A DNA stretch of 32,000 nt, taken from positions 5,178-37,177 of the forward strand of contig NZ_RCWA01000021.1 of assembly GCF_018448905.1 (NCBI RefSeq), in the 5' to 3' direction. Position numbers and translations under genes: made by a program. Every line of letters begins with the position of its first letter. The first letter of the stretch is position 1. Origin of the DNA: Photorhabdus heterorhabditis. GTDB lineage: Bacteria; Pseudomonadota; Gammaproteobacteria; Enterobacterales; Enterobacteriaceae. This document shows positions 3,457-21,518 of the stretch, piece by piece. The notes under the pieces were generated by a model. It was not told where the DNA came from and made no database searches. It saw only the letters and a list, made by a program, of their open reading frames with translations.

Positions 3457-3582
3457 TATACCCAATAGATTTCAATTTGCAGCGCGGCGGCAAGAGAACG
3501 CATCCCCAGGAGTATAGATAACGATGTGACTGGGGTAAGTGAACGCAGCCAACAAAGCAGCAGCTTGAAGGATGAAGGGTAT
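3457..3582 (+). repeat. ERIC (enterobacterial repetitive intergenic consensus) element, copy 1
   Basis: The sequence is TATACCCAATAGATTTCAATTTGCAGCGCGGCGGCAAG...CCCCAGGAG...GTGACTGGGG...CAGCTTGAAGGATGAAGGGTATA. It is an imperfect palindrome of about 126 bp matching the ERIC consensus and the 5 other copies in this window. Confidence 0.9.
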
Positions 3583-3872
3583 ATCTGTAATGCGGGCATG
3601 ATATCGCGATATATTTTACTTGATACTTTTGTCGAATATAAAGAAGAAAAATAAAAAACAATATGCTCGCATCAGTAAAAAACTCATCATATAACTAACT
3701 TGAAATTCACGTAAAAAATATTTTGCGAAGCGGCTCGCATTAGTTTTTGAAATTTTTCTTAATATAAAATTAATTTGTGAAGGTGTTTGATAATTCTTTA
3801 GGTGCTTATGGCTGCTTTGGAAAAGATAAGGAATACTCTGTTGCGAAAATAAAAGGGTAAGGATGAATAAGG

Positions 3873-10960: not shown

Positions 10961-11086
10961 TATCCCAATAGATTTCAATTTGCAGCGCGGCGGCAAGAGA
11001 ACGCATTCCCAGGAGCATAGATAACGATGTGACTGGGGTAAGTGAACGTAGCCAACAAAGCAGCAACTTGAAAGATGAAGGGTATA
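10961..11086 (+). repeat. ERIC element, copy 2
   Basis: It has the same sequence family and orientation as copy 1. It lies between the convergent kdsB and elyC stops. Confidence 0.9.
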
Positions 11087-11156
11087 TTCTTTGATTAACG
11101 AAAGTGCGGCATTAATTAATTGCGCTTTCGTTTCTCCCCGTTTTTCAGGAAATGGT

Positions 11157-14954: not shown

Positions 14955-17900
14955 TTGAACGCGGTAAATTTCGTTCACTGACGCTGGTTAACTGGAATGG
15001 TTTTTTTGCCAGAACTTTTGATCTTGATGAACTGGTAACAACCTTATCAGGCGGTAATGGTGCGGGTAAATCCACCACCATGGCAGCTTTCGTCACCGCA
15101 TTGATCCCTGATTTAACCTTGTTGCATTTCCGTAACACCACCGAAGCCGGTGCCACTTCCGGTTCCCGTGATAAAGGGTTGCATGGCAAGTTGCGTGCCG
15201 GGGTCTGTTATTCAACGCTGGATGTGATTAACTCCCGTCATCAGCGGGTGGTGGTTGGGGTGAGATTGCAACAGGTGGCGGGTCGTGATCGCAAAGTTGA
15301 TATCAAACCTTTTATGATCCAAGGATTGCCAACTGCTATCCAACCTACTCAGTTACTGACTGAAAATGTCGGTGAAAGACAGGCGCGTGTATTGCCGTTG
15401 AATGAACTGAAAGACCGTCTTGATGAAATGGAAGGTGTGCAGTTCAAGCAATTTAGCTCCATCACGGATTACCATGCCTTGATGTTTGATTTGGGCGTTA
15501 TCCCCAAACGCCTACGTTCAGCGGGTGATCGCAGTAAATTCTATCGTCTGATCGAAGCTTCCCTGTACGGCGGTATTTCCAGCGCCATTACCCGTTCCCT
15601 GCGTGATTACCTGTTGCCGGAAAACAGCGGTGTTCGGAAAGCATTTCAGGATATGGAAGCGGCATTGCGCGAAAACCGCATAACGCTGGAAGCTATTCGA
15701 GTCACCCAATCTGATCGTGATCTGTTCAAACACTTGATCACCGAAGCAACTTCTTACGTGTCAGCTGACTATATGCGCCATGCCAATGAGCGGCGCACTT
15801 ATCTGGATCAAGCACTGGCATTGCGGGGTGAACTGTTTGGTAGCCACAGACAACTGGCAACTGAGCAATATCGCCATGTTGAAATGGCGCGGGAGTTGGC
15901 TGAGCAAAATGGCGCCTCCTCCGATTTAGAAACGGATTATCAGGCTGCCAGTGATCATCTAAATCTGGTGCAGACCGCCATGCGCCAGCAGGAAAAGATT
16001 GATCGTTATCAGGTGGATCTGGAAGAACTTTCCTATCGTCTGGAAGAACAGACCGAAGTTGTTGAAGAAGCCGGCGAGCTTCAGGCTGAGTATGAAGCCA
16101 GAGCGGAAGCAGCTGAACAGGAAGTGGATGAGCTGAAAAGTCAGTTGGCTGATTATCAGCAGGCACTGGATGTTCAGCAAACCCGTGCTATTCAGTATCA
16201 ACAGGCGTTACAAGCGCTGGAGCGCGCCCGTGAACTTTGTCAGCTACCGGATCTTGCCGCCGATAATGCAGAAACATGGCTGGAAACTTTTCAGGCTAAA
16301 GAGCAGCAGGCGACAGAAGCTCTGTTGATGTTGGAACAGAAATTAAGTGTGGCAGATGCGGCTCATAATCAGTTCGAACAGGCGTATCAACTGGTTAAAA
16401 GTATGGTTGGTGAAATCAACCGTAGTGAAGCCTGGCAGAGCGCTCGTGAATTGCTGCGTGATTGGCCGTCACAGCGACATCTGGCGGATCGCGTTCAGCC
16501 GTTTCGCATGCAGTTGGCTGAACTGGAGCAGCGCTTGAACAACCAACAAAATGCGGAACGTTTATTAAGCGAATTTTGTAAACGTCAGGGACAGCAATAT
16601 CAGGCTGAAGATCTGGAAGGATTACAAAATGAACTTGAAGCCCGGCAGGAAGCATTAAGTTTAAGTGTCAATGAAAGCGGTGAGCGTCGTATGGAAATGC
16701 GACAGGCGCTTGAACAGCTAAAACAGAAAATTCAGTCACTGACTGCCCGCGCCCCGGTCTGGCTGGCTGCGCAGGATACCCTGAACCAACTGTGTGAACA
16801 GAATGGTGAAGCGCTGGCGAGCAGTAATGACGTGACGGAATATATGCAGCAGTTGCTTGAACGTGAACGTGAGGCAACGGTAGAGCGTGATGAAATTGCG
16901 GCGCAGAAACGTGAGTTGGAAAAGCAGATCGAGCGCCTCAGCCAGCCGAGTGGTGCGGAAGACAGCCGGATGATTGCCTTAGCGGAACGTTTCGGTGGGG
17001 TTTTGCTGTCAGAAATTTATGACGATATCACCATTGATGACGCGCCTTATTTCTCGGCCCTGTATGGGCCAGCGCGTCACGGTATTGTGGTGCCCGATCT
17101 TTCTCTGGTTCGTCCACAGCTTGAAACGCTGGAAGATTGCCCGGAAGATCTCTATCTCATTGAAGGTGATCCTCAATCCTTTGATGACAGCGTATTTAAT
17201 GCCGAAGAGCAGACAAATGCGGTATTGGTTAAATCTTCTGACCGCCAATGGCGTTATTCTCGTTACCCTGAATTGCCGTTGTTTGGCCGTGCTGCCAGAG
17301 AAAATCGTTTAGAAGTTTTGAATTTGGAGCGCGATACCTTGGCGGAGCGTTATGCCACGCTCTCTTTTGATGTACAGAAAATTCAGCGTGCTCATCAGGC
17401 GTTCAGTCAGTTTGTCGGTAAACACCTCTCTGTGGCATTTGATACCGATCCGGAAGCGGAAATCCGTGAACTAAGGCAGCGTCACACGGAACTGGAACGT
17501 GAACTATCCCGGTTTGAAGATCAAACCCAACAACAGCGTCAGCAATATACTCAGGCTAAAGAGAGCCTGACGACATTAAATCGCCTAATCCCTCAAGTTA
17601 CGCTATTGCTGGATGAAACCTTAATCGATCGCGTAGAGGAAGTACGTGAAGAGCTGGACGAAGCACAGGAAGCGGCCCGTTTCCTACAACAGCATGGTTC
17701 GGCGCTGGCAAAGTTGGAACCGATGGTTGCGGTTCTGCAAAGCGATCCACAGCAACATGAGCAGTTGCAACGGGACTATGAAATCGCCAAACATAGCCAG
17801 CATCAAGCTAAACAACAGGCATTTGCGCTGGTGGAAGTGGTACAGCGTCGAGCGCATTTTAGCTACAGTGATTCTGCGGGTATGCTCAACGAAAATGTGG

Positions 17901-19399
17901 ATTTGAATGACAAACTGCGTCAGCGTCTGGAACATGCAGGATCGGACCGCAGCCGCGCCCGCGAACAACTGCGTCAACAGCAAGCGCAGTATTCCCAATT
18001 TAACCAGGTGCTGGCCTCCCTGAAAAGCTCTTATGAAACCAAACAAGATATGCTGAAAGAGCTGGAACAGGAGATGAAAGAGATTGGTGTTCAAGCGGAT
18101 GCGAATGCTGAAATTCGTGCCCGTGAGCGCCGTGATCGGCTCCATGAAGCGCTCAGCACTAACCGTTCCAGAATCAACCAGCTTGAGAAGCAGATCGCTT
18201 TTTGTGAAGCAGAGATGGAAAGCTTGCAGAAAAAACTGCGGAAACTGGAACGCGATTACCATCAAATCCGCGAGCAAGTGGTTGCGGCTAAATCGGGTTG
18301 GTGTGCAGTAATGCGCATGGTGAAAGACAATGGCGTTGAGCGTCGTCTGCATCGTCGTGAACTGGCTTATATGGAGGGGGGCGCGTTACGTTCCATGTCG
18401 GATAAGGCGTTGGGTGCATTGCGTCTGGCAGTGTCTGATAACGAACATCTACGTGATGCGCTGCGTTTATCCGAAGATCCAAAACGTCCTGAACGTAAGA
18501 TTCAATTCTTCATTGCGGTTTATCAGCATCTGCGTGAACGTATTCGTCAGGATATTATCCGCACTGACGATCCGGTTGATGCCATTGAACAGATGGAAAT
18601 TGAGCTGGCTCGTCTGACAGAAGAGCTGACAGCCCGCGAGCAGAAATTAGCTATCAGTTCGAAGAGTGTGGCGAATATTATCCGCAAAACCATTCAGCGC
18701 GAGCAGAACCGCATCCGCATGCTGAACCAAGGGTTACAAGCAGTCTCCTTTGGACAAGTTCGTGGTGTGCGGTTGAATGTCAACGTGCGTGAAAGCCACG
18801 CGCTATTGCTGGATGTGTTGTCTGAACAGCAAGAACAGCATCAGGATCTCTTTAACAGCCAGCGATTAACCTTCTCGGAAGCAATGGCAAAACTTTATCA
18901 GCGCCTGAATCCGCAAGTAGATATGGGGCAGCGCTTACCGCAAACCATAGGTGAAGAGTTATTGGATTACCGTAACTACTTGGAACTGGATGTTGAAGTT
19001 AACCGTGGATCGGATGGCTGGTTAAAAGCAGAGAGTGGGGCGCTATCGACAGGTGAAGCGATCGGTACCGGCATGTCGATTCTGGTGATGGTGGTACAGA
19101 GTTGGGAAGAAGAATCTCGCCGTTTGCGTGGTAAAGATATTTCCCCTTGTCGATTGTTATTCCTTGATGAAGCGGCGCGTTTGGATGCTAAATCTATCGC
19201 TACCTTGTTTGAACTATGTGAGCGCCTGCAAATGCAGTTAATTATCGCTGCCCCGGAAAATATCAGCCCTGAAAAAGGGACCACTTATAAACTGGTGCGT
19301 AAGGTATTTAAAAACCACGAACATGTGCATGTGGTTGGGCTGAGAGGATTTGGGCAGGATGTTCCGGCAACTCAATTGATTTCAGATGTTACTGCTTAA
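14951..19399 (+). CDS. mukB: Chromosome partition protein MukB (SMC-like condensin)
   Basis: The protein is 1482 aa. It has an N-terminal Walker A (GGNGAGKST), long coiled coils and a C-terminal head ([11 protein letters not shown]). An ATGA overlap couples it to mukE. Confidence 0.98.
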
Positions 19400-19428
19400 T
19401 TAAATGGGTGACTTGCGATAGCCATAAA

Positions 19429-19469
19429 AATAAAGAGAGTGCGCCACGGATGGCGCAACAGATTATTGA
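19429..19469. repeat. Hairpin motif copy A (AATAAAGAGAGT-GCGCCACGGATGGCGC-AACAGATTATTGA)
   Basis: A perfect 6-bp stem with a 4-nt loop lies at 19441-19456. The 5' flank is shared with copy C (22311). Read on the minus strand, the stem is followed by a T-rich tract, so it may also terminate higBA. It lies 42 bp after the mukB stop. Confidence 0.7.
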
Positions 19470-19485
19470 TTTTCATCCAGCACCC

Positions 19486-19534
19486 TGTTTTAATTCAGCT
19501 CCGTTCACCAGACGGAGTTTGCCGCCATGTTAAG
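19486..19534 (+). repeat. Copy X of a ~49-bp IS-left-end-like sequence ending in ATGTTAAG
   Basis: TGTTTTAATTCAGCTCCGTTCACCAGACGGAGTTTGCCGCCATGTTAAG differs at about 7 positions from 20342-20390. That second copy leads into a transposase N-terminus. Here the sequence stops at the higA stop codon. Confidence 0.7.
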
Positions 19535-19820
19535 GTGTTGGTGTAAACAGGGGAGTTAGACGAGTTAAATCTATTTCCTGTTTAACTTGTGCCAAGCTAT
19601 ACGCTTCCTGGAGTCTCAGCCACATTTCCGGCGTACTGCCGATCACGCTGGCTAAACGAACCGCCATTCCTGGCGTTACTGCCGCGCTACCTTCAACAAC
19701 ACGCCCAATAGTTGACGGTGAGACATCCAGCGCACGCGCAAGCGCTCTAAGACTAATATTTAAGTGCTCCATCTCGTCAGAGATATAGCGCCCCGGATGG
19801 GGTGGCATACGTTTAGTCAT
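19530..19820 (-). CDS. higA: HigA-type (VapI/XRE HTH) antitoxin
   Basis: The 96-aa protein MTKRMPPHPGRYISDEMEHLNISLRALARALDVSPSTIGRVVEG... has the HTH typical of HigA partners of HigB-like (killer protein) toxins. Confidence 0.85.
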   Translation of the reverse strand: MTKRMPPHPGRYISDEMEHLNISLRALARALDVSPSTIGRVVEGSAAVTPGMAVRLASVIGSTPEMWLRLQEAYSLAQVKQEIDLTRLTPLFTPTP

Positions 19821-20220
19821 TCATGATAGTCCTCGTAGTTCAGTATATATACCCGTTATCTTTCAAGTTGCCTCTTTGTTGGCTGCACTCACACCCCGGT
19901 CACATAGTTCTCTATGCTCCCGGGGATTCGCTCCTTTGCCGTCGCGATGCATCTTGAAATCCATAGGTATAAACATCACCATCGTTAAATTCGAAAGTTA
20001 ACCTCCAGTTACCCGATACGCTTACCGCCCAAATACCCTTTCGATCTCCTGTAAGTGGGTGGAGTTGAAAACTCGGTAAACTCAAATCATTCAGGCAGCT
20101 TGCTAAATCTAATGCGTTTAACAGCAGGTCTAGCCTGTTAGCATGGTGGGCAACAATTCCCGCCGTGGTTCCCTTCTCGTAATACTTTCGTAACCCTTTA
20201 TGCTTCCAACTTTTAATCAT
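19817..20220 (-). pseudogene. higB: HigB-like (plasmid maintenance killer, RelE-fold) toxin gene interrupted by ERIC
   Basis: Codons 1-83 (MIKSWKHKGLRKYYEKG...NWRLTFEFNDGDV) are followed by ERIC-encoded codons and a stop at 19912. The displaced native 3' end YILNYEDYHE* is readable at 19849-19817, with its TGA overlapping the higA ATG. Confidence 0.8.
19847..19971 (-). repeat. ERIC element, copy 3, inserted within higB
   Basis: On the minus strand it reads TATACCTATGGATTTCAAGATGCATCGCGACGGCAAAGGAGCGAATCCCCGGGAGCATAGAG...AAAGATAACGGGTATA. Boundaries are good to about +/-3 bp because of flanking TA repeats. Confidence 0.9.
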
Positions 20221-20341
20221 TGTTTGCGTCCTGTTGCGTTACGATAGACAGCATAACACGTGTCGCGCATTGCACGACAACATTTTTTTGATAAAATAAT
20301 ATCAGATTATTGACAAAGTGCTGTTTTTTTATCCGGTACTT

Positions 20342-20538
20342 TGTTTTAATTCAGTTCCGTTCACTAAACGGGGCTTGCCACTATGTTAAGAACACCCCCT
20401 CTCCAGACTTTCCCGCCAGAAACGCACTCGCTTGACGAGTTGGTTCCTAAAAATCATTTGGTCCGTCAAGTCGATGCCGCCATTGATTTCGAATTTATTT
20501 ATCCGCGAATTAGTCTCCCCATTGTATTGCCACAATAA
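20342..20538 (+). mobile_element. IS remnant: left end plus a 51-codon truncated transposase N-terminus (DUF772 / IS5-IS1182-like)
   Basis: MLRTPPLQTFPPETHSLDELVPKNHLVRQVDAAIDFEFIYP resembles the N-terminal DUF772 domain of IS5/IS1182-family transposases. The ORF then degenerates (RISLPIVLPQ*). No catalytic domain follows. Confidence 0.65.
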
Positions 20539-20580
20539 TAACGCCTTGGTGGGGGATTAAACCGGGTTAATGAGGAAAAT

Positions 20581-20607
20581 GGATGGCGCAATAGATATTT
20601 AGCTTGA
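20581..20607. repeat. Hairpin motif copy B (right half only: GGATGGCGCAATAGATATTTAGCTTGA)
   Basis: It matches the right half and 3' flank of copy C (15/16 in the flank). It lacks the left stem arm. Confidence 0.65.
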
Positions 20608-20834
20608 AAAATTGTACCGTTATTTTTTGCTTATTAGATTCGGTATTATTAATACGAGAAATGTAGTGGTCTAATAAACCCCAAAAAATCAATCAATTTA
20701 AAACCACTTTAATCGTCGTATAATTGTGGTGCCAATCACGGCATAGCGGTGTCAGTGGGCAAGCACACGGCACCATTTCAAAAAAACATTAAGGAGAAGC
20801 CTATGGCGAAACTTATTTATGGGGGTACCTCACA

Positions 20835-21518
20835 ATGCAAACAAAGGAGACTTTTCTTTCAAAGTTTGACTATCCAAATTTAGATCAAGAAATTACGGCA
20901 ATCTTTGAAGATGATTCATTACCGACGCATTCACCTGGTAATGGGGACTTAAAACGCTGGCAGAGGAAAGAATGGCCATCGGCTATAAATTTCTCCACTG
21001 GTGACGGTCGATATAATGCTCCGGATGATACTTTTGGTGTTTGCTACATGGCAGACAAGGCCGTTTCAGCGCTTGCTGAAAGTTTTGGGCGCCTGATACA
21101 TAAAGATGGGCGGAAATTTGTTGAGGAGTCTGTTATTGAAAACTCACGAATGTGTCTGATTCGCCCACTCCGGCCACTCGTTTTTGTCGATGTGGGGAAA
21201 CTTCTGGGAATGCTGCATATTACGTTAGACGTCTCAGTCGGAGATGACTACACAGTGACACAGAGAGTAATTGCGTGCCTCTACAAGCTTGCCAGAGATA
21301 AGTTTGACGGTGTTTGTTACTTATCGAGGCATTTTCCTTCCACTGATTTCTGCTATGCAGTCTGGGAATCGGATGAAGAAAGGTTTGAAGATGTAGGAAT
21401 GAAGAATCTCTCGGAATACTACGATTCAGAATACATGCTATTGAACTGGAAATACTCTAGCATCACGGCTGAAGAACTGCTCGAAGACGTGCTCCGATTC
21501 AAGGTTGTCCCGCTTTAA
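20835..21518 (+). CDS. RES-domain protein (putative NAD+-targeting toxin of the RES-Xre family)
   Basis: The pattern DGRYNAPDDTFGVCYMADKAVSALAES ... TQRVIACLYKLARDKFDGVCYLSRHFPS fits the R...E...S order and spacing of the RES domain. The SD for ATG 20835 is weak. Confidence 0.6.
   Translation: MQTKETFLSKFDYPNLDQEITAIFEDDSLPTHSPGNGDLKRWQRKEWPSAINFSTGDGRYNAPDDTFGVCYMADKAVSALAESFGRLIHKDGRKFVEESVIENSRMCLIRPLRPLVFVDVGKLLGMLHITLDVSVGDDYTVTQRVIACLYKLARDKFDGVCYLSRHFPSTDFCYAVWESDEERFEDVGMKNLSEYYDSEYMLLNWKYSSITAEELLEDVLRFKVVPL

What the first reader, a model, noticed from the sequence alone, without database searches (positions are those of the whole stretch)
19817..20220. ERIC element inserted inside higB, cutting the toxin's C-terminal tail off while leaving higA intact
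On the minus strand, HigB-like codons 1-83 (...NWRLTFEFNDGDV) run to about 19972. The sequence then becomes the canonical ERIC terminus (TATACCTATGGATTTCAAGATG..., as in the other copies). ERIC supplies an unrelated 19-codon tail (YTYGFQDASRRQRSESPGA) and a stop at 19912.

Immediately past the other ERIC end the minus strand reads TAT ATA CTG AAC TAC GAG GAC TAT CAT GAA TGA, which is YILNYEDYHE*. Its TGA overlaps the higA ATG (ATGA, 19820-19817). Deleting the ~125-bp ERIC restores a 93-aa HigB collinear with Proteus vulgaris Rts1 HigB, whose C-terminus I recall as ...GDAYILNYEDYH. From memory, D90, Y91 and H92 of that protein are reported as active-site residues.

The expressed chimeric protein would therefore lack Y91/H92. 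A structured ERIC RNA now also separates toxin and antitoxin cistrons that were originally translationally coupled. This is a clean, datable example of MITE-mediated toxin inactivation. TA dinucleotides flank both ends.
Basis: partly seen in the sequence, partly recalled or inferred. Interest (0 to 1): 0.65.

Follow-up and report, generated by a model that had tools for sequence, protein, structure and literature searches.

The report
ERIC repeat disrupts higB toxin gene
A 120-bp mobile repeat (ERIC) has landed inside the toxin gene of a higBA toxin-antitoxin pair in Photorhabdus heterorhabditis, replacing the toxin's catalytic tail and leaving the antitoxin gene whole; it is a tidy but ordinary case of a selfish toxin gene being knocked out.

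Summary
The minus-strand ORF 20220..19912 (102 aa) is HigB codons 1-84 fused to 18 ERIC-encoded codons. The insert is a 120-bp ERIC plus a duplicated TA (19850-19971), one of six ERIC copies in the window. Removing 122 bp restores a 93-aa ORF. That ORF covers Pfam HigB-like_toxin end to end, is 52% identical to Proteus vulgaris HigB over 92 ungapped residues, and matches P. cinerea HigB at 92/92 residues.

ERIC-free alleles sit at the same mukB-adjacent locus in several Photorhabdus species, and their sequence shows the empty site. The chimera has Y91->A and H92->S. Published mutagenesis shows either change alone abolishes HigB toxicity. higA (19820..19530) is intact.

All three P. heterorhabditis assemblies seen carry the insertion. 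P. noenieputensis has an ERIC at the same TA in the same orientation. However, the P. heterorhabditis haplotype is closest to the ERIC-free P. cinerea allele, so one event versus two is unresolved and the dating is not clean.

higB at this locus also decays by frameshift or 5' deletion in other species, while higA stays intact. This is a new example of two known things: MITE insertional inactivation and toxin-first decay of chromosomal TA modules. Toxicity was not tested. Interest is low to moderate.

The parts
19912..20220 (-). Present chimeric ORF (102 aa): HigB residues 1-84 plus an 18-residue ERIC-encoded tail, stop TAG at 19914-19912. Identical to WP_054479911.1 of Photorhabdus heterorhabditis.
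   Evidence: Pfam PF05015 matched only over profile positions 1-84 of 91
19972..20220 (-). Native higB 5' part, codons 1-83 (through V83). 100% amino-acid identity to the intact P. cinerea HigB over this part.
19850..19969 (-). ERIC element core, 120 bp (TACCTATGG...ACGGGTA). Has terminal inverted repeats. Its RNA is predicted to fold into a long hairpin of -46.9 kcal/mol, z = -6.0.
19970..19971 (-). TA target-site copy on the higB 5' side of the ERIC. The register is ambiguous within the TATA run.
   Evidence: filled versus empty site comparison
19848..19849 (-). TA target-site copy on the higA side of the ERIC.
19817..19849 (-). Stranded 3' remnant of higB: codons 84-92 (YILNYEDYH) plus GAA TGA. 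It is out of frame with the chimeric ORF. It carries the catalytic D90, Y91 and H92 codons and a P. heterorhabditis-specific TAA->GAA change at the old stop.
19830..19834 (-). GAGGA Shine-Dalgarno-like motif 9 nt upstream of the higA ATG. It lies downstream of the ERIC and so is retained.
   Evidence: read from the sequence; function inferred
19530..19820 (-). higA antitoxin gene, 96 aa, intact (HTH_3; TIGR02607 HigA equivalog). 97-99% identical to HigA of other Photorhabdus species.
20221..20300 (-). Presumed higBA promoter/operator region. Contains the inverted repeat TGTCG-N9-CGACA and a TATGCT -10-like hexamer that aligns with TATAAT in the Mixta homologue. Present in P. heterorhabditis; deleted in P. 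noenieputensis and P. antumapuensis.
   Evidence: sequence and alignment. The consensus scan did not call it. Inferred only.
19470..19534 (.). Downstream copy of a 65-nt direct repeat that brackets the higBA cassette. It starts at the higA stop codon.
   Evidence: (D5)
20326..20390 (.). Upstream copy of the same 65-nt direct repeat (82% identical to the downstream copy).
   Evidence: (D5)

Best explanation
The window comes from Photorhabdus heterorhabditis. Next to mukB lies a higBA type II toxin-antitoxin cassette, with the toxin gene first and a HigA helix-turn-helix antitoxin second.

Shown here: a 120-bp ERIC miniature transposable element inserted at a TA inside the run GTT-TATATAC at higB codons 84-85 and duplicated that TA. 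The insertion shifts the frame. HigB residues 85-92 (ILNYEDYH) are replaced by TYGFQDAS plus ten more ERIC-encoded residues. The true C-terminal codons are stranded out of frame just upstream of higA.

Inferred: the chimera lacks Tyr91 and His92. In P. vulgaris HigB, changing either residue alone abolishes growth arrest and cuts mRNA cleavage about 200-fold. The product should therefore be a non-toxic remnant.

Inferred: higA keeps its own GAGGA ribosome-binding motif and start codon downstream of the ERIC, so it can still be translated. It is now uncoupled from higB translation, with a stable ERIC hairpin in the transcript between the two cistrons. In Yersinia, ERICs of one orientation lower the level of the upstream mRNA segment relative to the downstream one. 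If that holds here, expression would shift further towards antitoxin.

The net state is an antitoxin-only remnant. This is the usual toxin-first decay of a chromosomal TA module. The same locus reaches that state by frameshift or 5' deletion in other Photorhabdus species.
For: - Identity of the chimera. It is identical to WP_054479911.1 of P. heterorhabditis. Its 90%-identity cluster mates are intact 92-93-aa Photorhabdus HigB proteins.
- Filled versus empty site. P. cinerea, P. kayaii, P. temperata, P. antumapuensis and three P. luminescens-named assemblies read GATGTT-TATATAC-TGAAC with no ERIC. The window reads GATGTT-TA[TACC...GGGTA]TA-TATAC.
- Restored ORF. It is 92/92 identical to P. cinerea HigB and 48/92 identical and ungapped to P. 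vulgaris HigB, with H54, N71, R73, D90, Y91 and H92 in register. In 41 aligned homologues, Y88, E89, D90, Y91 and H92 are invariant.
- Mutagenesis. H54A, D90A, Y91A, H92A, Y91F and H92F each fully restore growth. D90A, Y91A, H92A and deltaH92 lower the cleavage rate 77- to 215-fold. The deltaH92 variant carried foreign residues after position 91, much like this chimera (PMC5027501).
- ERIC status. Six copies lie in 32 kb. The element matches unannotated intergenic sequence in 4531 of 5426 E. coli genomes at 75-80% identity, over 90-96% of its length in the best hits shown, including the hsdR-hsdM spacer. The predicted hairpin has z = -6. The literature states that ERIC-type MITEs with TA flanks are very abundant in Photorhabdus (PMC3184786; 711 copies, PMC10969869).
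- Antitoxin. higA is intact and conserved at 97-99% in every species, including those where higB is broken by frameshift, 5' deletion or truncation.
- Not an artefact. The insertion is present in three independent P. heterorhabditis assemblies.
Against: - Toxicity of neither the chimeric nor the restored protein was measured. The inference rests on a homologue that is 52% identical.
- Asp90 is retained by chance in the ERIC-encoded tail. Both low-confidence structure models still place a strand at residues 82-90. Residual folding and HigA binding therefore cannot be excluded.
- No transcript data exist, so the effect of the ERIC on higA expression is inferred from Yersinia work that I could read only second-hand.
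- The promoter was not detected by the simple consensus scan.
Confidence: 0.85

Rival explanations
1. Two independent hits. The ERICs in higB of P. heterorhabditis and P. noenieputensis are separate insertions into the same TA. Under this reading the site is an ERIC hot spot, ERIC has been mobile recently in Photorhabdus, and the P. heterorhabditis event is young. It would post-date the split from the P. cinerea haplotype and pre-date the common ancestor of the three sequenced strains.
For: - The P. heterorhabditis higBA haplotype differs from ERIC-free P. cinerea at 4 of 526 sites, but from ERIC-bearing P. noenieputensis at 11 of 526. One derived site unites P. heterorhabditis with P. cinerea and none unites it with P. 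noenieputensis.
- The flanks agree: 1/221 versus 12/223 differences upstream.
- The P. noenieputensis higB ERIC is no closer to the window's (94.5%) than a non-orthologous P. kayaii copy is.
- The central-loop variant GAG is shared with another P. heterorhabditis copy (window 30171-30297). The variant GCA is shared with a neighbouring P. noenieputensis copy. All 11 other sampled copies have GAT or TAT.
Against: - Same TA and same orientation by chance is improbable without a hot spot, and no target motif beyond an AT-rich TA context was seen.
- The ERIC divergence (4 substitutions in 122 bp) equals the haplotype divergence, as co-descent would predict.
- The loop variants rest on very few copies. 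Gene conversion between neighbouring copies could also produce them.
Confidence: 0.45
2. One insertion, later spread or lost. A single ancestral ERIC insertion either moved between species by homologous recombination of the cassette or was precisely excised, restoring higB in lineages such as P. cinerea.
For: - The site and orientation are identical.
- higBA DNA is 96-99.5% identical between species whose mukB is only 90-91.5% identical, so this cassette does recombine across species.
- TATA direct repeats and long inverted repeats flank the insert. That geometry can favour slippage-type precise deletion (inference).
Against: - It requires either a precise 122-bp excision or a very short conversion tract.
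- The ERIC divergence of 3.3% is larger than expected if the transfer post-dated the 0.8% split between the P. heterorhabditis and P. cinerea haplotypes.
- The species-specific loop variants argue against it.
Confidence: 0.35
3. The chimeric HigB is still functional. It could be a weakened toxin, or a catalytically dead HigA-binding partner that has been retained for regulation. Under this reading the ERIC fusion is a protein-remodelling event rather than a knockout.
For: - Codons 1-84 carry no further lesion in three strains.
- H54 and, by chance, D90 are present.
- Intragenic ERIC C-terminal fusions have been proposed as a source of new peptides (PMC2759123).
- NCBI annotates the product as a normal toxin.
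Against: - Y91 and H92 are invariant in homologues, and each is individually essential for toxicity in P. vulgaris HigB.
- In P. vulgaris, HigB does not influence HigA operator binding (PMC6393540), so a regulatory role for a dead HigB is not expected.
- In P. noenieputensis the same allele has also lost its promoter and first codons, which is the behaviour of a pseudogene.
- The three strains are too similar for an intact 5' part to indicate selection.
Confidence: 0.07
4. Assembly or sequencing artefact. A repeat collapsed into the gene during assembly.
For: None. It was considered only because ERIC is a high-copy repeat.
Against: The same junctions occur in the window and in two independent assemblies (LJCS01000041 and VTUW01000010). 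These differ from the window by a 2-nt indel inside the ERIC and by scattered SNPs. Two P. noenieputensis assemblies show the same junction.
Confidence: 0.01

Closest known systems
Proteus vulgaris Rts1 HigB/HigA (PDB 4MCT, 4MCX, 4PX8; ribosome-dependent mRNA endonuclease of the RelE superfamily)
   Same: The gene order is the same: toxin first, then an HTH antitoxin. The restored HigB is 52% identical over 92 ungapped residues, with an identical C-terminus YILNYEDYH and conserved H54, D90, Y91 and H92. HigA matches P. vulgaris HigA at E 1e-19.
   Different: The gene here is chromosomal, next to mukB, and interrupted. The expressed product ends ...VYTYGFQDASRRQRSESPGA and lacks Y91 and H92. 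The best solved HigA relative is E. coli CFT073 HigA (2icp), not the Rts1 protein.
ERIC / IRU / RU-1 miniature inverted-repeat elements of Enterobacterales, including the intragenic C-terminal ORF fusions described by Delihas 2007
   Same: The size is similar. It has terminal inverted repeats, TA flanks with a TA duplication, many dispersed copies and a long RNA hairpin. It is 75-80% identical to E. coli copies. It creates a C-terminal fusion that reads into the element.
   Different: Delihas reported no insertions within conserved domains of superfamily proteins. This one lies inside the conserved HigB domain, in its last strand, and removes catalytic residues. The window copy is slightly short: 120 bp, with a 2-nt loss relative to sister strains.
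Decay of chromosomal toxin-antitoxin systems (for example ccdO157 in E. coli, Mine et al. 2009, as cited in PMC3184786)
   Same: A chromosomal TA cassette sits at a variable intergenic spot. Toxin genes are inactivated repeatedly and in different ways across lineages, while the antitoxin persists.
   Different: The TA family differs (HigBA versus CcdAB). One of the inactivating lesions here is a MITE rather than a point mutation or deletion.
MITE insertional inactivation of genes (MITEaba12 in hns, Correia elements in Neisseria genes, MITEs in avrA and hopX1, mcy genes)
   Same: A non-autonomous element inserts in a coding sequence and disables it. Related strains retain the empty site (PMC10969869).
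   Different: The target is a TA toxin gene. My searches found no published case of an ERIC in a TA toxin, but the search was limited to open-access text.

Membership tests
ERIC (enterobacterial repetitive intergenic consensus) MITE | Length of about 127 bp with a conserved core and imperfect terminal inverted repeats | tested here: met
   The core is 120 bp here, and the insert is 124-125 bp in sister strains and species. It aligns over its full length with five other window copies at 81% mean column identity. The arms pair in the fold.
ERIC (enterobacterial repetitive intergenic consensus) MITE | TA dinucleotide at both ends, arising from duplication of a TA target | tested here: met
   The empty site reads GTT-TATATAC in seven orthologous alleles. 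The filled site reads GTT-TA[TACC..GGGTA]TA-TATAC, which is exactly one extra TA plus the element.
ERIC (enterobacterial repetitive intergenic consensus) MITE | Many dispersed copies, mostly intergenic | tested here: met
   Six copies lie in 32 kb and five are outside long ORFs. More copies occur in other Photorhabdus loci. The literature reports 711 copies in P. luminescens.
ERIC (enterobacterial repetitive intergenic consensus) MITE | Sequence homology to the E. coli/Salmonella ERIC consensus | tested here: met
   blastn gives 75-80% identity, over 90-96% of the element in the best hits shown, to unannotated intergenic sequence in 4531 of 5426 E. coli genomes. One example is the hsdR-hsdM spacer. 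That these E. coli sequences are the named ERICs rests on the literature and my memory; the records do not label them. Rfam has no model and gave no hit.
ERIC (enterobacterial repetitive intergenic consensus) MITE | Mobilisation in trans by a transposase | not testable with these tools
   The transposase is unknown even in the literature. Here mobility is inferred only from filled and empty sites.
HigB toxin (Pfam PF05015, RelE superfamily) | Full-length match to the HigB-like_toxin domain | tested here: not met
   The present 102-aa ORF matches profile positions 1-84 of 91 only. The in-silico restored ORF matches 1-91 of 91 at E 1.9e-19. The gene is therefore HigB by descent, but its product is truncated.
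HigB toxin (Pfam PF05015, RelE superfamily) | Catalytic residues His54, Asp90, Tyr91 and His92 (P. vulgaris numbering) | tested here: not met
   The chimera has H54 and D90 but A91 and S92. The restored ORF has all four. Their requirement comes from PMC5027501.
HigB toxin (Pfam PF05015, RelE superfamily) | Toxin gene upstream of, and overlapping, a HigA HTH antitoxin gene | tested here: met
   higA lies immediately downstream. It meets TIGR02607 (100.9 bits, cut-off 47.7) and matches solved HigA structures. Intact alleles have a TAATG overlap.
HigB toxin (Pfam PF05015, RelE superfamily) | Ribosome-dependent mRNA cleavage and growth arrest neutralised by HigA | not testable with these tools
   This needs expression assays.
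Functional type II toxin-antitoxin module | Both partners intact and co-expressed | tested here: not met
   The toxin ORF is disrupted and the antitoxin ORF is intact. Expression was not tested.

The most novel reading that the evidence does not exclude
The TA at higB codons 84-85 is a recurrent ERIC target that was hit independently in P. heterorhabditis and P. noenieputensis. That would mean ERIC elements have transposed recently in Photorhabdus, and that MITE insertion is a repeated, possibly selected, route to silencing this toxin. A rarer variant is that the element can be lost precisely, which would make the toxin gene reversibly switchable.
Probability: 0.4. Interest if true: 0.45.

Novelty: new member of a known kind. 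Interest (0 to 1): 0.3.

Why it matters
- **Annotation.** The 102-aa P. heterorhabditis product (WP_054479911.1) and the 117-aa P. noenieputensis product (WP_376744764.1) are both labelled as ordinary RelE/ParE toxins. They are probably dead fusion products, so TA censuses that count them will overcount active toxins.
- **ERIC mobility.** The locus offers matched filled and empty sites for an ERIC element in closely related haplotypes. That is direct evidence of ERIC mobility in Photorhabdus, a genus where the element is extremely abundant and its transposase is unknown.
- **TA evolution.** Together with the frameshift and deletion alleles in sister species, it illustrates toxin-first decay of a chromosomal TA cassette with retention of the antitoxin.

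None of this changes current understanding. It is a clean textbook-style example, not a new principle.

Tried and rejected
- **Rfam.** A scan of the whole window at gathering thresholds found nothing. ERIC has no Rfam model, so this says nothing about the element.
- **NCBIfam.** It has no model that catches this HigB, restored or chimeric. Pfam and the PDB search were used instead.
- **Structure prediction.** AlphaFold2 models of the chimera (mean pLDDT 58) and of the restored protein as a control (mean pLDDT 65) were both poor with the 41-sequence alignment. They cannot show whether the ERIC tail disrupts the fold, so I did not run fold searches on them.
- **Promoter scan.** The consensus scan did not call a promoter upstream of higB. 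The likely -10 (TATGCT) falls below its threshold, so the promoter assignment stays an inference from alignment with the Mixta homologue.
- **ERIC ranking.** Ranking ERIC copies by similarity, to decide whether the P. noenieputensis higB copy is orthologous, was uninformative. It ties with an unrelated P. kayaii copy.
- **Other chimeras.** Checking cluster members of unusual length (83, 112, 60 and 73 aa) found only start-site artefacts or other truncations.
- **Papers not held.** The primary papers De Gregorio 2005 and Schureck 2014 are not in the library. Their content is cited second-hand.
- **Assembly artefact.** Considered and rejected.
- **Genome scan.** Species coverage of the filled/empty survey is therefore incomplete.
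Full report
**1. What is in the sequence**

On the minus strand an ATG at 20220 opens a 102-codon ORF that ends at TAG 19914-19912. Its first 84 residues (MIKSWKHKGL...NWRLTFEFNDGDVY) match Pfam HigB-like_toxin (PF05015) over profile positions 1-84 of 91. After GTT (Val83, ending at 19972) the DNA reads TATACCTATGGATTTCAAGATG... and supplies the tail TYGFQDASRRQRSESPGA.

The stretch 19848-19971 belongs to a dispersed repeat:
- A 45-nt arm recurs twice more in the window at <=3 mismatches, against 0 expected by chance.
- The repeat finder and a six-way alignment show full-length copies at 3457-3584, 10964-11087, 26592-26721, 27997-28110 and 30171-30297.

Downstream of the element, 19849..19817 reads TAT ATA CTG AAC TAC GAG GAC TAT CAT GAA TGA, which translates as YILNYEDYHE*. 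This TGA overlaps the ATG (19820-19818) of a 96-codon ORF. That ORF is an HTH_3 protein and meets the NCBIfam HigA equivalog TIGR02607 (100.9 bits, cut-off 47.7). It also matches solved HigA structures.

**2. The excision test**

Removing 122 bp in any register within the TATA runs yields one 93-aa ORF.
- It covers PF05015 positions 1-91 of 91 at E 1.9e-19.
- It aligns residues 1-92, without gaps, to P. vulgaris HigB (4mct_B, E 1.4e-30). Identity is 48/92 and the C-terminus YILNYEDYH is identical.
- His54, Asn71, Arg73, Asp90, Tyr91 and His92 fall at the same residue numbers as in P. vulgaris HigB.
- In an alignment with 40 homologues, Y88, E89, D90, Y91 and H92 are invariant.

**3. Whose genome, and the natural empty site**

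The chimeric protein is identical to WP_054479911.1 of Photorhabdus heterorhabditis, and HigA is identical to WP_054479910.1. Two other P. heterorhabditis assemblies carry the same junctions: LJCS01000041 (which I take from memory to be strain VMG) and VTUW01000010 (strain Q614, also from memory). Both differ from the window by scattered SNPs and a 2-nt GA indel inside the ERIC, downstream of the chimeric stop. The window is therefore a third strain, and the insertion is real and probably fixed in the species.

A scan of one genome per species found the same cassette beside mukB in other Photorhabdus. P. cinerea, P. kayaii, P. temperata, P. antumapuensis and three assemblies named P. luminescens read ...GATGGTGATGTT-TATATAC-TGAACTAC... 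with no ERIC.

Comparing filled and empty sites gives GTT-TA[TACC...GGGTA]TA-TATAC. This is a 120-bp element plus a duplicated TA, the signature described for ERIC-type MITEs (PMC3184786; PMC2229807). P. cinerea HigB is 92/92 identical to the restored ORF. The in-silico restoration thus reproduces an allele that exists in nature.

**4. Is the element an ERIC?**

- It has the right size, inverted termini, TA flanks and copy number.
- Its RNA is predicted to fold into a long hairpin (-46.9 kcal/mol; shuffles average -27.5; z = -6.0).
- It matches unannotated intergenic DNA in 4531 of 5426 complete E. coli genomes at 75-80% identity, over 90-96% of its length in the best hits shown. One example is the hsdR-hsdM spacer.
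- Reviews state that ERIC-like MITEs are especially abundant in Photorhabdus, with 711 copies in P. luminescens.

Rfam has no model for ERIC and returned nothing.

**5. Consequence for the toxin (inferred)**

Schureck et al. 2016 studied P. vulgaris HigB.
- H54A, D90A, Y91A, H92A, Y91F and H92F each completely relieve growth arrest, although the proteins remain soluble.
- D90A, Y91A, H92A and deltaH92 lower the cleavage rate constant 77-, 215-, 184- and 190-fold.
- The deltaH92 protein carried foreign linker residues from position 92 onward, a close analogue of the present fusion (PMC5027501).

The chimera reads Y84 T Y G F Q D90 A91 S92. Asp90 survives by coincidence, but Tyr91 and His92 are gone. 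I therefore consider the product non-toxic with high but not complete confidence, because the evidence comes from a 52%-identical homologue.

AlphaFold2 models of the chimera and of the restored control were both of low confidence (mean pLDDT 58 and 65). They add only that residues 82-90 are modelled as the last strand in both.

**6. Consequence for the operon (inferred)**

In intact alleles the higB stop and the higA start overlap as TAATG. In the window the chimeric ORF stops 91 nt before the higA ATG, and the ERIC hairpin lies between them. Translational coupling is therefore lost.

A GAGGA motif 9 nt upstream of the higA ATG lies downstream of the ERIC and is retained. Independent initiation remains plausible.

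Reviews summarise work in Yersinia showing that co-transcribed ERICs, in one orientation, expose an RNase E site. This makes the upstream mRNA segment less stable than the downstream one. If that applies here, it would favour antitoxin over the toxin remnant.

In P. vulgaris, HigB does not alter HigA binding to the operator (PMC6393540). Autoregulation by HigA should therefore persist.

All three P. heterorhabditis strains also share a TAA->GAA change at the old higB stop.

**7. The wider pattern at this locus**

higB is broken in several different ways across Photorhabdus:
- a 1-nt frameshift in P. temperata;
- loss of the promoter and codons 1-57 in P. antumapuensis;
- a 73-aa truncation in one P. 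laumondii protein;
- an ERIC plus a 252-bp 5' deletion in P. noenieputensis.

In the four loci examined at the DNA level, higA stays intact at 97-99% amino-acid identity. This is the familiar toxin-first decay of chromosomal TA modules.

Intragenic ERIC C-terminal fusions were catalogued by Delihas 2007. MITE insertional inactivation is a recognised category. Full-text searches found no report of an ERIC in a TA toxin gene. I therefore class this as a new member of a known kind.

**8. Can the event be dated?**

P. noenieputensis carries an ERIC at the same TA in the same orientation. The insert is 125 bp, and its reading frame runs through the element to give a 117-aa product, WP_376744764.1.

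Several observations argue against a single shared event:
- Over 526 shared non-ERIC columns, P. heterorhabditis differs from ERIC-free P. cinerea at 4 sites and from P. noenieputensis at 11. One derived site unites P. heterorhabditis with P. cinerea.
- The upstream flank shows 1/221 versus 12/223 differences.
- The two higB ERICs are 94.5% identical, no more than a non-orthologous P. kayaii copy.
- Each shares a central-loop variant with another copy in its own genome: GAG in P. heterorhabditis and GCA in P. noenieputensis. Eleven other sampled copies have GAT or TAT.

These points lean towards two independent insertions at a hot spot. The sample is small, however. A single insertion followed by inter-species recombination or precise loss is not excluded. 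Such recombination is plausible, because the cassette is 96-99.5% identical between species whose mukB is only about 91% identical.

The event can be bracketed: it is older than the common ancestor of the three strains, and probably younger than the split from the P. cinerea haplotype.

**9. Verdict**

The thing itself is an ordinary, well-documented kind of event and a neat example of it. The practical lesson concerns annotation, since both chimeric products are labelled as normal toxins. Interest is 0.3.

Noticed in passing
window 19470-19534 and 20326-20390: A 65-nt direct repeat (82% identical) brackets the higBA cassette, and each copy contains a small hairpin. The downstream copy begins at the higA stop codon. 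Both copies are present wherever the cassette is whole in Photorhabdus. The upstream copy is lost with the 5' deletions in P. noenieputensis and P. antumapuensis. Homologous cassettes in Mixta, Xenorhabdus and Rosenbergiella lack the repeat. It may be an insertion scar or an attachment-site duplication.
   Followed up: partly
window 19400-20661 versus 17000-19399; loci L001, L005, L007, L059: higBA and its immediate flanks are 96-99.5% identical between Photorhabdus species, while the adjacent mukB 3' half is only 90-91.5% identical. This implies that the cassette has been exchanged or recombined between species more recently than the species split.
   Followed up: partly
window 19429-19458, 22311-22340, 24119-24148: A 30-nt hairpin repeat (AATAAAGAGAGTGCGCCACGGATGGCGCAA) occurs three times. 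The first copy is terminator-like and lies between the convergent mukB and higA genes.
   Followed up: no
window 23496-23749 and 23816-24057: A duplication of roughly 250 bp (92-96% identical, offset about 310-320 bp) lies at and beyond the 3' end of an Rpn/YhgA-like Transposase_31 gene (22809-23759).
   Followed up: no
window 20383-21518: A RES-domain gene (20835-21518) has no recognisable Xre-type partner upstream. The spacer holds a 51-codon ORF whose sequence looks, from memory, like an IS transposase N-terminal fragment; it had no Pfam hit. The stretch from mukB to the PVC-like genes (Pvc16_N and AAA at 29251-31693) looks like a flexible island.
   Followed up: no
window 19848-19971 and 30171-30297; L077 9625-9751 and 10220-10346: ERIC central-loop variants appear species-specific in the small sample. 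GAG occurs in two P. heterorhabditis copies, GCA in two neighbouring P. noenieputensis copies, and GAT or TAT in all 11 others. This may mark young, lineage-specific ERIC subfamilies.
   Followed up: partly
window 27997-28110: One ERIC copy carries a 14-bp internal deletion relative to the others (the GAGCGAATCCCCGG segment is missing).
   Followed up: no
L075 and L076 (P. akhurstii CP053107, P. luminescens CP022160), gene at 2501-2794: A second higA paralogue (97 aa, about 90% identical) sits at an unrelated locus with no higB called upstream. It is another orphan antitoxin of the same family. P. caribbeanensis L063 holds a higB fragment of codons 1-36 only.
   Followed up: no
public annotation of window 19912-20220 and L007/L077: NCBI names the 102-aa (WP_054479911.1) and 117-aa (WP_376744764.1) ERIC-fusion products as 'type II toxin-antitoxin system RelE/ParE family toxin' with no pseudogene flag.
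   Followed up: yes
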